Source of the DNA: a virus
Virus genome (UHGV): UHGV-0171999
Length of the DNA: 64,000 bases
Strand: one strand, 5' to 3'
Both the position numbers and the translations under genes were made by a program. Below the pieces are notes generated by a model. It worked only from the letters and a program-made list of their open reading frames with translations. It made no database searches and was not told the DNA's origin. Of the stretch, positions 57,847 through 59,186 are shown in pieces (position 1 is the first letter of the stretch; the number at the start of each line of letters is the position of its first letter).

Positions 57847-58407
57847 ATGATTAATAAAATTGTGCATGAAATGGCTTTAAACGGAGATTCATATAAAATA
57901 TCTGCCGTAGTTGAGAATTTCATACTTAATAAAGTAAAAGAATATTTCACTGATTGTTTAGTCAGTTATCAAGAAAAAATGATTTTAACTGATGATACTG
58001 AAAAATCAAATAATTTATTTTGTTCGAATTTTACAACTAAGAAGCGTACTAGAAGATTTGATATTGTTATTTCTCGCAACGGTAAAAAGCATATAATTGA
58101 AATCAAACATCAAGTTGGTGGAGGTACAGCTATTGATTCTGTTGGAATATATTTAGAAGATAAAGATAAATTAAAAGAATACACAAAAACTGAAAATCCT
58201 GTGTCATTGATGATATTAGATTTTTTGCCATGCGGATATTATCCACGCAATAAGTGGACAAAAAGAGAATCATTTACTGATAATCCAACCATCCAAGCAA
58301 GGTTTAATGAATATGCTAAATCACAAAACGTGTTAGTATTACTATCAAATACATATGATGAAGAATTATATAATTCGTTTTTTGCTGCAATAAATGAGAG
58401 AATATAA
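57847..58407 (+). CDS. putative PD-(D/E)xK-fold nuclease, translationally coupled to dam
   Basis: 186 aa; motif [19 protein letters not shown] (D-x12-E-x-K); stop overlaps dam ATG (TAATG). Confidence 0.5.
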
Positions 58408-59186
58408 TGCTAGGAGCTATTGCGTATACAGGTAATAAACAATCATTATTACCTGAACTTAAGTCTCACTTTCCAAAATATGACAGATTCGTGGATTTAT
58501 TTTGCGGAGGTTTATCGGTATCTTTGAATGTCGATGGTCCTGTATTGGCTAATGATATCCAAGAACCAATTATTGAAATGTATAAACGTCTTATTAGTGT
58601 GTCATGGGATGACGTTTTAAAAGTAATAAAGCAATATAAATTGTCAAAAACATCAAAAGAAGAGTTTTTGAAATTACGTGAAGATTATAATAAAACTAAA
58701 GATCCTCTTTTGCTTTATGTTCTTCATTTTCACGGGTTTAGTAATATGATTCGCATAAATGACAAAGGAAATTTTACTACTCCATTTGGAAAAAGAACTA
58801 TAAACAAAAATAGTGAAAAACGTTTTAATCACTTTAAGCAAAATTGTGATAAAATAATTTTTAGCTCATTGCATTTTAAAGATGTCAAAATTCTAGATGG
58901 CGATTTTGTATATGTTGATCCTCCATATCTCATAACAGTTGCCGATTATAATAAATTTTGGTCAGAAGACGAAGAAAAAGACCTTTTAAATCTTTTAGAC
59001 TCTTTAAATGACAGAGGAATAAAATTTGGACTGTCGAATGTTTTAGAGCACCACGGAAAGGAAAACACTCTTCTTAAAGAATGGTCTAAAAAATATAATG
59101 TTAAGCATCTTAATAAAAAATACGTCTTTAACATATATCATTCCAAAGAAAAGAATGGAACTGATGAAGTATATATTTTTAATTAA
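58407..59186 (+). CDS. dam: DNA adenine methyltransferase Dam
   Basis: [25 protein letters not shown]...DPPY; near-identical to remembered T4 Dam; 259 aa. Confidence 0.95.

What the first reader, a model, noticed from the sequence alone, without database searches (positions are those of the whole stretch)
57847..59186. PD-(D/E)xK-type nuclease gene translationally coupled to the Dam methyltransferase gene
The 186-aa ORF upstream of dam has the signature [19 protein letters not shown] (Asp, then Glu-x-Lys 13 residues later), the catalytic core of restriction-endonuclease-fold nucleases. Its stop codon overlaps the dam start (TAATG), so the two are likely co-translated from the early promoter near 57792. 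A nuclease paired with a GATC methylase resembles a restriction-modification or methyl-directed (MutH/DpnII-like) arrangement. In a phage with hmC-glucosylated DNA this could act against unmodified competitor or host DNA. I cannot recall a T4 counterpart between gene 61 and dam, so it may be accessory.
Basis: partly seen in the sequence, partly recalled or inferred. Interest (0 to 1): 0.6.

Follow-up and report, generated by a model that had tools for sequence, protein, structure and literature searches.

The report
Phage restriction-like nuclease paired with Dam
Many natural T4-like phages carry, directly in front of their GATC adenine methylase gene (dam), an uncharacterised gene for a small enzyme with the shape and catalytic residues of a restriction endonuclease; the two genes come and go as one unit, and T4 keeps only a stump of the nuclease gene, which may explain why T4 has a methylase of unknown purpose.

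Summary
A 186-aa ORF (57847..58407) ends in TAATG, which overlaps the dam start, and it carries E23, D72 and E85-x-K87.

- **Sequence.** The only similarity is sub-threshold, to the catalytic core of DpnII (the GATC enzyme) and to BanI.
- **Family size.** 12 hits among 1.84 billion protein representatives, all placeable ones from T4-like phages, none in 185,579 bacterial and archaeal species genomes.
- **Linkage.** Every homologue with readable context lies immediately upstream of a Dam-type methylase, overlapping or abutting it. This holds at three different genomic loci and down to 30% identity.
- **Distribution in Tequatrovirus.** The ~1.43 kb unit (own early-type promoter, nuclease, dam) is present in about 155 records and absent as a whole from many others. 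T4 has a 549-bp deletion that removes the promoter and codons 1-160. T2 has a frameshifted C-terminus.
- **Selection.** dN/dS is 0.07.

Best reading: a phage-borne Type II restriction-modification-like cassette, probably aimed at unmethylated GATC, with T4 Dam as its orphaned methylase. Nuclease activity, specificity and biological target are untested. No paper describing the gene was found.

The parts
57758..59186 (+). Whole cassette (promoter, nuclease-like gene, dam), present or absent as a unit relative to the empty 61/56 junction of RB27, PP01, vB_SsoM_113, bov10K1 and RB69. The left boundary is only located to within 57758-57778.
57792..57821 (+). Sigma-70 / T4-early-type promoter: GTTTAC at 57792-57797, extended -10 TGnTATTAT with TATTAT at 57816-57821.
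   Evidence: It is conserved in T2 and removed by the T4 deletion. Function is inferred.
57835..57839 (+). Shine-Dalgarno GAGGA, 7 nt upstream of the ORF186 ATG.
   Evidence: read directly from the sequence
57847..58407 (+). 186-aa restriction-endonuclease-fold protein (phrog_8706, annotated 'unknown function').
57913..57915 (+). Codon of E23, the invariant acidic residue on helix 1 (H15-33), where the canonical PD-(D/E)xK fold has one.
   Evidence: Aligned to the invariant E152 of the DpnII family.
58051..58107 (+). [20 protein letters not shown]72 (58060-58062) lies on beta2; E85 (58099-58101) and K87 (58105-58107) lie on beta3. This is the catalytic triad.
58108..58140 (+). Invariant H88-Q89-x3-G93-T94-A95-I96-D97-S98 at the start of helix 95-104. 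Candidate DNA-recognition element.
   Evidence: for invariance and for position. The role is inferred from where EcoRI/MunI-class enzymes place their recognition residues (my own knowledge).
58405..58409 (+). TAATG: the ORF186 stop overlaps the dam start by one base.
   Evidence: Junctions in homologues: 1-nt overlap (L007, L012), 4 nt (L011), 7 nt (L004), 20 nt (L006), 35 nt (L005), abutting (L008).
58407..59186 (+). dam, a Dam-family N6-adenine methyltransferase (GATC), 97% identical to T4 Dam.
57779..58327 (+). The 549 bp missing in T4: promoter, Shine-Dalgarno and codons 1-160. The deletion is bounded by a 4-nt CAAA microhomology. T4 retains 58328..58407 as a relic that supplies the dam translation-initiation region.
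57706..57731 (+). Terminator-like hairpin plus T-run between gene 61 and the cassette. It suggests the cassette is a separate transcription unit.
   Evidence: A terminator is annotated at the same place in phage fPS-2.

Best explanation
ORF186 and dam form a phage-borne, mobile, Type II restriction-modification-like cassette.

ORF186 is a small, single-domain PD-(D/E)xK DNA endonuclease of the EcoRI/MunI structural class. Enzymes of this class are typically homodimers that cut palindromes to leave 4-nt 5' overhangs.

It is transcribed from its own early-type promoter and translated just ahead of Dam, so the GATC methylase is made whenever the nuclease is.

Dam methylation, together with glucosyl-hydroxymethylcytosine, keeps the phage's own DNA safe. 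DNA carrying unprotected sites, most probably unmethylated GATC, is cut. Candidate targets are co-infecting or superinfecting phages that lack Dam, and other unmethylated DNA.

T4 Dam, long regarded as an orphan methylase of unclear purpose, is what remains after a 549-bp deletion removed the promoter and most of the nuclease gene.

Shown here: the fold, the catalytic residues, purifying selection, strict linkage with Dam, inheritance and mobility as a unit, and the T4 and T2 lesions.

Inferred: nuclease activity, GATC specificity, blockage by m6A, dimerisation, and the biological target.
For: **Fold.**
- The AF2 model is confident (pLDDT 82, pTM 0.80) and has alpha-beta-beta-beta-alpha-beta order.
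- Foldseek against the PDB returns mostly PD-(D/E)xK nucleases, with the highest TM-score for MunI at 0.57.

**Active site.**
- E23, D72, E85 and K87 are invariant in 9 sequences down to 30% identity.

**Sequence hints.**
- Pfam DpnII matches 4 of 9 members (best E 8e-5); BanI also matches 4 of 9.
- PADLOC REase_II PDLC03548 matches 3 of 9 (best E 5e-6).
- hhalign against a DpnII-family alignment scores 32.0. It aligns E23, D72 and E85 to the invariant E152, D201 and E214 of DpnII.
- The column-shuffle null gives 14.8 +/- 2.8, maximum 25, with 0 of 150 reaching the observed score.

**Linkage.**
- Every homologue with context is followed by an overlapping or abutting D12 methylase.
- This holds at three loci: the 61/56 junction, denB/ndd in Klebsiella phages, and upstream of rIIA in L006.
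- The two proteins co-diverge: 41%/61% in the Klebsiella phage and 30%/53% in L006.

**Unit behaviour.**
- About 155 Tequatrovirus records have the pair, and 153 have the whole 61-ORF-dam-56 stretch contiguous.
- Many others lack both genes. Dam without the nuclease occurs (T4-type records); the nuclease without Dam was never seen.

**Selection.** dN/dS is 0.07.

**T4 relic and deletion.**

**Precedent.** Chlorovirus PBCV-1 encodes an early GATC methylase, M.CviAI, as part of a viral R-M system (PMC7248222).

**Open question addressed.** The in vivo function of T4 Dam 'remains unclear' (PMC12707154).
Against: - No biochemical or genetic data exist for this protein.
- Similarity to DpnII is below Pfam's threshold (17.4 against 23 bits), covers only the catalytic core, and reaches only 26% hhalign probability. 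It may reflect the shared fold rather than shared specificity.
- The enterobacterial hosts are Dam-positive (my own knowledge), so a methyl-sensitive GATC cutter would not degrade host DNA, and its natural target is unclear.
- It is unknown whether any such enzyme can cut glucosyl-hmC DNA of rival T-even phages.
- GATC is strongly depleted in the window (O/E 0.33), but equally so in RB69, which lacks the cassette (0.29). The depletion therefore cannot be credited to this nuclease.
- T4 and about two thirds of Tequatrovirus records do without the nuclease, so any benefit is conditional.
- Complete R-M systems are rare in virulent phages: 9 in 831 phage genomes (PMC4176335).
Confidence: 0.55

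Rival explanations
1. Methylation-dependent or cytosine-DNA-specific nuclease with DpnI-like logic. ORF186 cuts Dam-methylated GATC in ordinary cytosine DNA, meaning host or foreign DNA. The phage genome is spared by glucosyl-hmC. Dam is linked because it creates or completes the substrate mark, not because it protects.
For: - The same strict linkage with Dam would be expected.
- T4-like phages already use cytosine-specific nucleases (DenA, DenB) to destroy host DNA; both are annotated in related genomes.
- The hosts are Dam-positive (my own knowledge), so their DNA would be a ready substrate.
- The window encodes the hmC and glucosylation genes needed for self-protection.
Against: - Known m6A-dependent GATC enzymes such as DpnI read the mark with a separate winged-helix domain (PMC11037411 abstract). 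ORF186 is a single 186-aa catalytic domain.
- The weak sequence hits are to DpnII, the methyl-sensitive enzyme.
- If Dam were not an antidote, nuclease-only genomes should be tolerated, yet none was found, while Dam-only genomes exist.
Confidence: 0.12
2. Homing-type endonuclease. ORF186 makes a site-specific break in cassette-less phage genomes during mixed infection, so that recombinational repair copies the cassette in. Dam is either a passenger or supplies immunity of the donor allele.
For: - The cassette is present or absent at the 61/56 junction.
- Phage fPS-2 has an annotated homing endonuclease gene at the same junction, and T4 has segF next to gene 56.
- The cassette occupies three different loci in different T4-like phages.
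Against: - There is no GIY-YIG or HNH motif. The best structural matches are Type II restriction enzymes, not homing enzymes.
- A passenger gene would not stay coupled through 30% divergence with repeatedly remodelled overlaps.
- The one GATC seen at the empty site in RB27 is absent from PP01, vB_SsoM_113, bov10K1 and RB69, so there is no conserved GATC target at the insertion point.
Confidence: 0.12
3. Methyl-directed nickase or repair-recombination factor, MutH-like in logic. ORF186 nicks the unmethylated strand at hemimethylated GATC in replicating phage DNA. This would direct repair or start recombination-dependent replication, with Dam supplying the strand mark.
For: - A GATC methylase paired with a PD-(D/E)xK nuclease is also the MutH/Dam arrangement (my own knowledge).
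- Expression is early and the cassette sits next to replication genes 61 and 56 and near oriA.
Against: - The cassette is dispensable and patchy among close relatives, which is unlike a core repair function.
- No mismatch-recognition partner is linked to it.
Confidence: 0.08
4. Non-catalytic or decaying remnant. The fold is retained but the protein is an inactive DNA binder or has no function.
For: - T4 has deleted it and T2 has a frameshifted C-terminus, without obvious harm.
- It is annotated 'hypothetical' almost everywhere, and PHROGs lists the family as 'unknown function'.
Against: - dN/dS is 0.07.
- The ORF is full length and free of frameshifts down to 30% identity.
- All four catalytic residues, plus a 10-residue motif following them, are invariant.
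Confidence: 0.05

Closest known systems
MunI / EcoRI-class Type IIP restriction endonucleases (PDB 1D02)
   Same: - Similar size: 186 aa against a 200-residue MunI chain.
- Single-domain alpha-beta-beta-beta-alpha-beta core, with Asp on beta2 and Glu-x-Lys on beta3.
   Different: - Only 12% sequence identity, and no sequence-level hit to any PDB chain even at E 10.
- MunI recognises CAATTG (my own knowledge). The partner here is a GATC methylase, not a CAATTG methylase.
DpnII / MboI family (Pfam PF04556), the methyl-sensitive GATC endonuclease of the pneumococcal DpnII cassette
   Same: - It is the top-ranked Pfam family, with repeated weak hits in 4 of 9 members.
- hhalign aligns the three acidic residues to DpnII's invariant E152, D201 and E214. 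The D-to-E (13) and E-to-GGG (8) spacings are the same.
- The score lies about 6 sd above a column-shuffle null.
- Both are partnered with Dam-class GATC methylases.
   Different: - The match is below Pfam's gathering score and has only 26% hhalign probability.
- ORF186 lacks the ~125-residue N-terminal part of DpnII.
- ORF186 has the canonical E-x-K where DpnII has E-x-N and an invariant Lys in the following GGSK.
- Gene order differs: the nuclease comes first here, whereas it follows the two methylases in dpnII (my own knowledge).
Chlorovirus PBCV-1 CviAI system (M.CviAI A581R with A579L)
   Same: A lytic virus that encodes its own early-expressed GATC adenine methylase as part of a viral R-M system (PMC7248222, Table 1).
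   Different: - It is a eukaryotic algal virus with unmodified cytosine.
- No sequence relationship was tested.
- In the chlorovirus the endonuclease is thought to attack host DNA (my own knowledge). The hosts here are already Dam-methylated.
T4 Dam as an 'orphan' phage methyltransferase
   Same: The methylase in the window is 97% identical to T4 Dam.
   Different: - In the window, and in about 155 other records, Dam is not solitary.
- T4's solitary state comes from a 549-bp deletion whose relic is still visible.
Free-standing homing endonuclease cassettes of T-even phages (Seg and Mob genes)
   Same: Presence/absence polymorphism between conserved genes, at a junction that holds a homing endonuclease gene in phage fPS-2.
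   Different: - Different fold and motifs.
- The cassette carries a methylase.
- No conserved target was identified at the empty site.

Membership tests
PD-(D/E)xK (restriction-endonuclease-like) fold superfamily | alpha-beta-beta-beta-alpha-beta core | tested here: met
   [not shown]
PD-(D/E)xK (restriction-endonuclease-like) fold superfamily | Catalytic Asp on beta2 and (D/E)-x-K on beta3, plus an acidic residue on helix 1 | tested here: met
   D72, E85, K87 and E23 occupy these elements and are invariant in 9 sequences down to 30% identity.
PD-(D/E)xK (restriction-endonuclease-like) fold superfamily | Metal-dependent phosphodiester cleavage | not testable with these tools
   Needs purified protein or an in vivo toxicity assay.
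Type II restriction-modification system | Endonuclease and methyltransferase genes adjacent and co-expressed | tested here: met
   TAATG overlap under one promoter. Overlap or abutment in all homologous loci.
Type II restriction-modification system | The two genes are inherited, lost and moved as a unit. The methylase can stand alone, but the nuclease cannot. | tested here: met
   Pair present in about 155 records, both genes absent in many, Dam alone in T4-type records, nuclease alone in none. Three different insertion loci.
Type II restriction-modification system | The methylase has a defined specificity | tested here: met
   97% identity to T4 Dam, which AF158101.6 annotates as methylating GATC in modified or unmodified cytosine DNA. 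TIGR00571 dam at 1e-69. This is by homology only.
Type II restriction-modification system | The endonuclease recognises the same site and is blocked by the cognate methylation | not testable with these tools
   Only indirect hints: sub-threshold DpnII similarity.
DpnII/MboI family (PF04556) | Match above Pfam's gathering score over the full-length profile | tested here: not met
   17.4 bits against a cut-off of 23, covering profile positions 153-233 of 278 only. The N-terminal ~125 residues of DpnII have no counterpart.
DpnII/MboI family (PF04556) | Homologous catalytic core by profile-profile comparison | tested here: inconclusive
   hhalign probability 26%, E 7e-4, score 32 against a shuffle null of 14.8 +/- 2.8 (0 of 150). 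The acidic triad aligns to DpnII's invariant residues.
MutH / Sau3AI family | MutH-type fold and sequence signature | tested here: not met
   [not shown]
DpnI-type methyl-dependent GATC enzymes | A separate winged-helix domain that reads m6A | tested here: not met
   Single 186-aa domain, with all secondary-structure elements accounted for by the nuclease core. No winged-helix hit.
T-even free-standing homing endonucleases (Seg GIY-YIG, Mob HNH) | GIY-YIG or HNH catalytic motif | tested here: not met
   No such Pfam or PHROG hit. The fold is PD-(D/E)xK.
T-even free-standing homing endonucleases (Seg GIY-YIG, Mob HNH) | Cleaves the cassette-less allele near the insertion point and biases inheritance | not testable with these tools
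   Needs mixed infections. No conserved GATC at the empty site.

The most novel reading that the evidence does not exclude
Virulent T-even phages carry a selfish, mobile restriction-modification cassette that they use against each other. The nuclease would cut unmethylated GATC even in hydroxymethylcytosine DNA of co-infecting Dam-less relatives, excluding them or forcing cassette transfer. This would give the first in vivo function for T2/T4 Dam, make T4 Dam a documented case of an orphan methylase born by in-situ loss of its endonuclease, and contribute to the three-fold depletion of GATC across Tevenvirinae genomes.
Probability: 0.25. Interest if true: 0.8.

Novelty: new member of a known kind. 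Interest (0 to 1): 0.6.

Why it matters
- **T4 Dam.** It is one of the best-studied DNA methyltransferases, yet a 2025 review still says its in vivo function 'remains unclear' (PMC12707154). In most natural Dam-bearing T-even phages, Dam is the second gene of a two-gene unit whose first gene looks like a restriction endonuclease.
- **Why it was missed.** The laboratory phages T4 (549-bp deletion) and T2 (frameshifted C-terminus) both carry lesions in that first gene. This offers a concrete, testable explanation for Dam's presence, and for why classical genetics never saw the partner.
- **R-M in virulent phages.** Complete R-M systems are reported as nearly absent from virulent phages (PMC4176335). 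Recent in-situ decay of complete systems was argued there to be an uncommon origin for solitary methylases.
- **Practical use.** If active, the enzyme could be a new small restriction enzyme, possibly one that tolerates hypermodified DNA.

Tried and rejected
1. **GATC depletion as evidence for the nuclease's specificity.**
   - The window shows GATC O/E 0.33, the lowest of all 16 four-base palindromes.
   - RB69, which has an empty 61/56 junction and no dam there, is equally depleted at 0.29.
   - The depletion is therefore lineage-wide and not attributable to the cassette.
   - Small Dam-only loci of KP15 and ECD7 show no depletion (23 against 21 expected; 21 against 20). These are only 3.8 kb each.
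2. **Homing at a GATC in the empty site.** RB27 has a GATC in the 61/56 spacer. PP01, vB_SsoM_113, bov10K1, fPS-2 and RB69 do not. Rejected.
3. **Looking for a bacterial DpnII-type neighbour through plasmid-borne Dam homologues.**
   - Of six loci inspected, four carried AlwI- or FokI-type endonucleases.
   - The other two (Enterococcus L014, Psychrobacter L016) showed no annotated endonuclease.
   - None was DpnII-type, so this gave no help.
4. **DpnII reference sequence.**
   - It is 99-100% identical to database entries named DpnII.
   - Only database sequences were used in alignment A4.
5. **Bacterial homologues.** None were found in 185,579 species genomes by a pattern-plus-tblastn scan. 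This scan has limited sensitivity.
6. **IMG/VR.** Only two loci were found, both from known phage types.
7. **AlphaFold database fold search.** The library was not available.
8. **ORFs upstream of dam in other T4-like genera.**
   - KP15 has an 81-aa ORF and ECD7 a 143-aa ORF. Neither has a nuclease-family Pfam hit.
   - ECD7's is unrelated to ORF186 by hhalign; KP15's was not compared.
9. **Literature.** Six full-text searches and targeted reading found no paper describing this gene. One GenBank record, phage Shinka, calls it 'putative restriction endonuclease'.
10. **Extended hhalign (mact 0.05).** It gave no convincing alignment beyond the catalytic core.
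Full report
**1. What is in the sequence**

The window is from a T4-like phage of the genus Tequatrovirus. The stretch 57400-58600 is 95-98% identical to many Escherichia, Shigella and Yersinia phages.

The local gene order on the + strand is:
- sp (55430..55723), 61.2, 61.1 and primase gene 61 (56518..57546);
- a 66-aa ORF on the opposite strand (57543..57743);
- a 186-aa ORF (57847..58407);
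- dam (58407..59186);
- gene 56 dCTPase (from 59232).

The window also encodes a DNA alpha-glucosyltransferase (Pfam AGT, 777 bits). It has a 246-aa thymidylate-synthase-family protein of the size of T4 gp42, followed by a TAGT-type glycosyltransferase.

The 186-aa ORF ends ...ATA TAA TG, so its stop codon overlaps the dam ATG by one base. The peptide [19 protein letters not shown] is residues 69-87.

Upstream lie GTTTAC (57792-57797) and TGnTATTAT (-10 at 57816-57821), with GAGGA 7 nt before the ATG. A terminator-like hairpin at 57706-57731 separates the unit from gene 61. The promoter scan as a whole is not enriched over shuffles, so the promoter remains an inference.

**2. The gene is real and under selection**

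- PHROGs places the protein in phrog_8706, annotated 'unknown function' (E 3e-114).
- Pfam, NCBIfam and PDB sequence searches give nothing above threshold.
- Homologues run from 98% to 30% identity with no frameshifts.
- dN/dS against the copy in phage Lutter is 0.07, compared with 0.035 for dam.
- The family is very small. An exhaustive HMMER profile search of 1.84 billion representatives found 12 proteins, several of them fragments.
- A scan of one genome from each of 185,579 bacterial and archaeal species found none.
- IMG/VR yielded two loci.
- Every placeable member is from a T4-like phage.

**3. Fold**

AlphaFold2 on the 8-sequence alignment gives mean pLDDT 82.2 and pTM 0.80. The element order is helix 15-33, strands 38-48, 66-77 and 80-88, helices 95-113, strand 119-124, helix 147-160, strand 163-167 and helix 172-185.

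This is the canonical PD-(D/E)xK core. E23 lies on the first long helix, D72 on the second strand, and E85-x-K87 on the third.

In the viral structure library the only close match is the family's own representative, an 'uncharacterized protein' of phage MX01.

Invariant residues across nine sequences are: E23, V39, Q42, S54, R69, D72, I73, I75, H82, E85, K87, H88, Q89, G93, T94, A95, I96, D97, S98, L109, P118, S120 and D125.

The block K87-H88-Q89-x3-G93-T94-A95-I96-D97-S98 follows the catalytic strand and begins the next helix. EcoRI/MunI-class enzymes place base-contacting residues there (my own knowledge). I treat this block as a candidate recognition element, not as a finding.

**4. Which restriction enzyme family?**

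By sequence the best-ranked Pfam families are DpnII (PF04556) and BanI. Both are below threshold in the window protein (E 0.003), and each recurs in 4 of 9 family members (best DpnII E 8e-5). A PADLOC Type II REase model of DpnII-like length (290 positions) hits 3 of 9 members (best E 5e-6).

To test this, I recalled the pneumococcal DpnII sequence from memory and verified it in two ways:
- it scores 336 bits over the full PF04556 profile;
- it is 99-100% identical to database proteins named DpnII.

I then built a 17-sequence alignment from database members (A4) and ran hhalign against the phage family. The result was probability 26%, E 7e-4 and score 32. E23, D72 and E85 align with the invariant E152, D201 and E214 of DpnII.

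A column-shuffle null gave 14.8 +/- 2.8 with a maximum of 25, and 0 of 150 shuffles reached the observed score. The reversed alignment scored 14.1.

The similarity to the DpnII catalytic core is therefore above chance but not conclusive. The phage protein lacks DpnII's N-terminal ~125 residues. It also has the canonical E-x-K where DpnII has E-x-N.

I do not file it in the DpnII family. I regard a distant relationship of the catalytic cores as likely, and the shared GATC context as suggestive.

**5. Linkage with Dam: the strongest evidence**

Each homologue with recoverable context is followed at once by a D12-class methylase.

| Locus | Source | Nuclease-methylase junction |
|---|---|---|
| window | this phage | 1-nt overlap |
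| L007 | metagenomic contig | 1-nt overlap |
| L012 | metagenomic contig | 1-nt overlap |
| L011 | metagenomic contig | 4-nt overlap |
| L008-L010 | metagenomic contigs | abutting |
| L004 | Klebsiella phage SmallBear_ER8 | 7-nt overlap |
| L005 | distant member, 31% identity | 35-nt overlap |
| L006 | distant member, 30% identity | 20-nt overlap |

The junctions differ, so the coupling is maintained by selection rather than by simple inheritance of one sequence.

The pair sits at three different places in T4-like genomes:
- between primase 61 and dCTPase 56 (window, L007, L008);
- between denB and ndd near rIIB in the Klebsiella phages;
- directly upstream of rIIA in L006.

The two proteins co-diverge: nuclease 41% and methylase 61% identity in the Klebsiella phage, and 30% and 53% in L006.

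**6. Presence, absence and decay within Tequatrovirus**

- tblastn finds the full ORF in about 155 phage records and a short relic in about 34.
- Dam at 90% identity or more occurs in 182 records.
- The 2.8-kb stretch 61-ORF-dam-56 is 80% or more covered in 153 records.
- Many other Tequatroviruses match only the two flanks, spanning about 1369 bp instead of 2801 bp.
- In RB27, PP01, vB_SsoM_113 and bov10K1, gene 61 and the antisense ORF are followed after a ~70-bp spacer by gene 56. RB69 is likewise empty.
- The unit that is gained or lost is about 1.43 kb (about 57758..59186). It runs from just upstream of the promoter exactly to the dam stop codon.
- In phage fPS-2 the same junction holds a homing endonuclease gene instead.

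T4 has a third state. Its 61-dam spacer matches the window up to 57778 and resumes at 58328. This is a 549-bp deletion bounded by a CAAA microhomology, and it removes the promoter, the ribosome-binding site and codons 1-160. The remaining 26 codons are 95% identical at the protein level over the 21 residues matched and now form the region just upstream of the T4 dam start. This fixes the direction of change: T4 lost the nuclease gene.

T2 has lost one T from a T-run near the 3' end. Its product ends ...NSFLLQ instead of ...[11 protein letters not shown] and no longer overlaps dam. Both classical Dam-positive laboratory phages thus carry lesions in this gene. That may be why it was never noticed genetically (inference).

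**7. Mechanism proposed**

The simplest account is a Type II restriction-modification-like cassette. An early promoter drives a small MunI-class endonuclease and, by translational coupling, the GATC methylase that protects the phage's own DNA.

Three patterns fit a toxin-antidote relationship of the R-M kind: the asymmetry (methylase alone exists, nuclease alone does not), inheritance as a unit, and mobility.

The site is most likely GATC and the enzyme most likely methyl-sensitive. The reasons are that the partner is Dam and the only sequence hints point to DpnII. This step is inferred, not shown.

The target is the weakest point. Enterobacterial hosts are Dam-positive (my own knowledge), so host DNA would be protected. 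Plausible targets are co-infecting or superinfecting phages without Dam, or under-methylated DNA.

A virus-encoded GATC R-M system has a precedent in chlorovirus PBCV-1 (PMC7248222). Complete R-M systems are otherwise rare in virulent phages (PMC4176335).

**8. Rivals**

- **DpnI-like logic** (cut methylated cytosine DNA, spare hmC DNA). This would explain host-DNA attack. It does not fit the lack of a methyl-reading domain, or the absence of nuclease-only genomes.
- **Homing-endonuclease reading.** This fits the polymorphic junction. It does not fit the fold, the persistent coupling to Dam, or the lack of a conserved GATC at the empty site.
- **MutH-like nickase role.** It cannot be excluded by sequence, but it has no structural support.
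- **Dead remnant.** This is contradicted by dN/dS and by the invariant residues.

**9. GATC depletion**

GATC is the most depleted four-base palindrome in the window: 66 observed against 198 expected from a second-order Markov model, O/E 0.33.

The small cassette-bearing loci are also depleted: L004 10 against 27 expected, L006 7 against 20, L007 3 against 31, and L008 1 against 13.

A 50-kb stretch of RB69, which has no cassette, is equally depleted (48 against 164, O/E 0.29). The depletion is a property of the wider hmC-phage lineage and cannot be used as evidence for this nuclease.

It does show that GATC is under strong selection in these phages, for reasons that remain open.

**10. Novelty and verdict**

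The fold and the kind of system are known. The protein family is uncharacterised:
- PHROG annotates it 'unknown function';
- UniProt lists the representative as 'uncharacterized';
- one GenBank record calls it 'putative restriction endonuclease'.

I found no paper on it in six full-text searches.

The interest lies in the context: a virulent, DNA-hypermodifying phage with its own R-M-like cassette, and a concrete origin and possible purpose for T4 Dam, whose in vivo role a 2025 review calls unclear (PMC12707154).

I rate it a new member of a known kind, interest 0.6. Confidence is 0.55 in the R-M-like mechanism as a whole. It is higher, about 0.85, for 'a restriction-endonuclease-fold protein functionally tied to Dam'. 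It is lower, about 0.4, for 'a methyl-sensitive GATC cutter'.

Noticed in passing
window 57543..57743 (-): A 66-aa hydrophobic ORF lies on the opposite strand and overlaps the stop codon of primase gene 61. It has its own AAGGAGGA ribosome-binding site and an ATAAATA late-promoter-like motif upstream. It belongs to phrog_2024 ('unknown function') and is called dam.1 in RB27 and RB32ORF030w elsewhere. It is intact in T4 (65 of 66 residues aligned) but is not in the AF158101.6 feature table for that stretch. It is present whether or not the dam cassette is there, and a same-position, similar-sized antisense ORF (RB69ORF029w) is annotated in RB69.
   Followed up: partly
whole window; RB69 locus L027: GATC is about three-fold under-represented (66 against 198 expected), far more than any other 4-bp palindrome. 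It is equally depleted in RB69, which lacks dam at this locus. Small loci of the Dam-only phages KP15 and ECD7 show no depletion. The cause was not determined.
   Followed up: partly
L020 (Yersinia phage fPS-2) 1115..1765; window junction ~57758/59186: The 61/56 junction is a hotspot for mobile nuclease genes. It is empty in RB27, PP01 and RB69, carries the nuclease-dam cassette here, and carries an annotated homing endonuclease in fPS-2 and ph0021. T4 additionally has segF just beyond gene 56.
   Followed up: partly
L023 (Aeromonas phage GomatiRiver_11) 1037..1507: In this T4-like Aeromonas phage the gene between primase and dam is a pyrimidine-dimer DNA glycosylase homologue (Pfam Pyr_excise, E 7e-17). 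It overlaps the dam start by 7 nt. This is a different DNA-cutting enzyme in the same coupled position.
   Followed up: no
L021 (KP15) 1247..1492; L022 (ECD7) 1061..1492: Dam genes of Slopekvirus and Krischvirus phages also have a small ORF (81 aa and 143 aa) overlapping or abutting the dam start. Neither has a nuclease-family Pfam hit. ECD7's is unrelated to ORF186 by hhalign; KP15's was not compared.
   Followed up: partly
L003 (phage T2) 1801..2346: The T2 copy has lost one T from a T6 run. This replaces the last 9 residues with LLQ and opens a 13-nt gap before dam. Phage SV76 also aligns only over residues 1-179 and probably shares the lesion. Whether the T2 protein is active is unknown.
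   Followed up: partly
window 49660..51239 (+): Next to the gp42-like dCMP hydroxymethylase gene lies a 282-aa TET-associated-glycosyltransferase-type gene (Pfam TAGT, E 4e-10), rather than a T4-type beta-glucosyltransferase. An alpha-glucosyltransferase gene is at 37071..38285. This suggests a T2/T6-like glucosylation pattern.
   Followed up: no
plasmid loci L013, L015, L017, L018: The closest plasmid-borne relatives of the phage Dam (35-42% identity) are methylases in Firmicutes. In four of the six loci inspected they sit next to AlwI- or FokI-type (Type IIS) endonuclease genes. None sat next to a DpnII-type gene.
   Followed up: no
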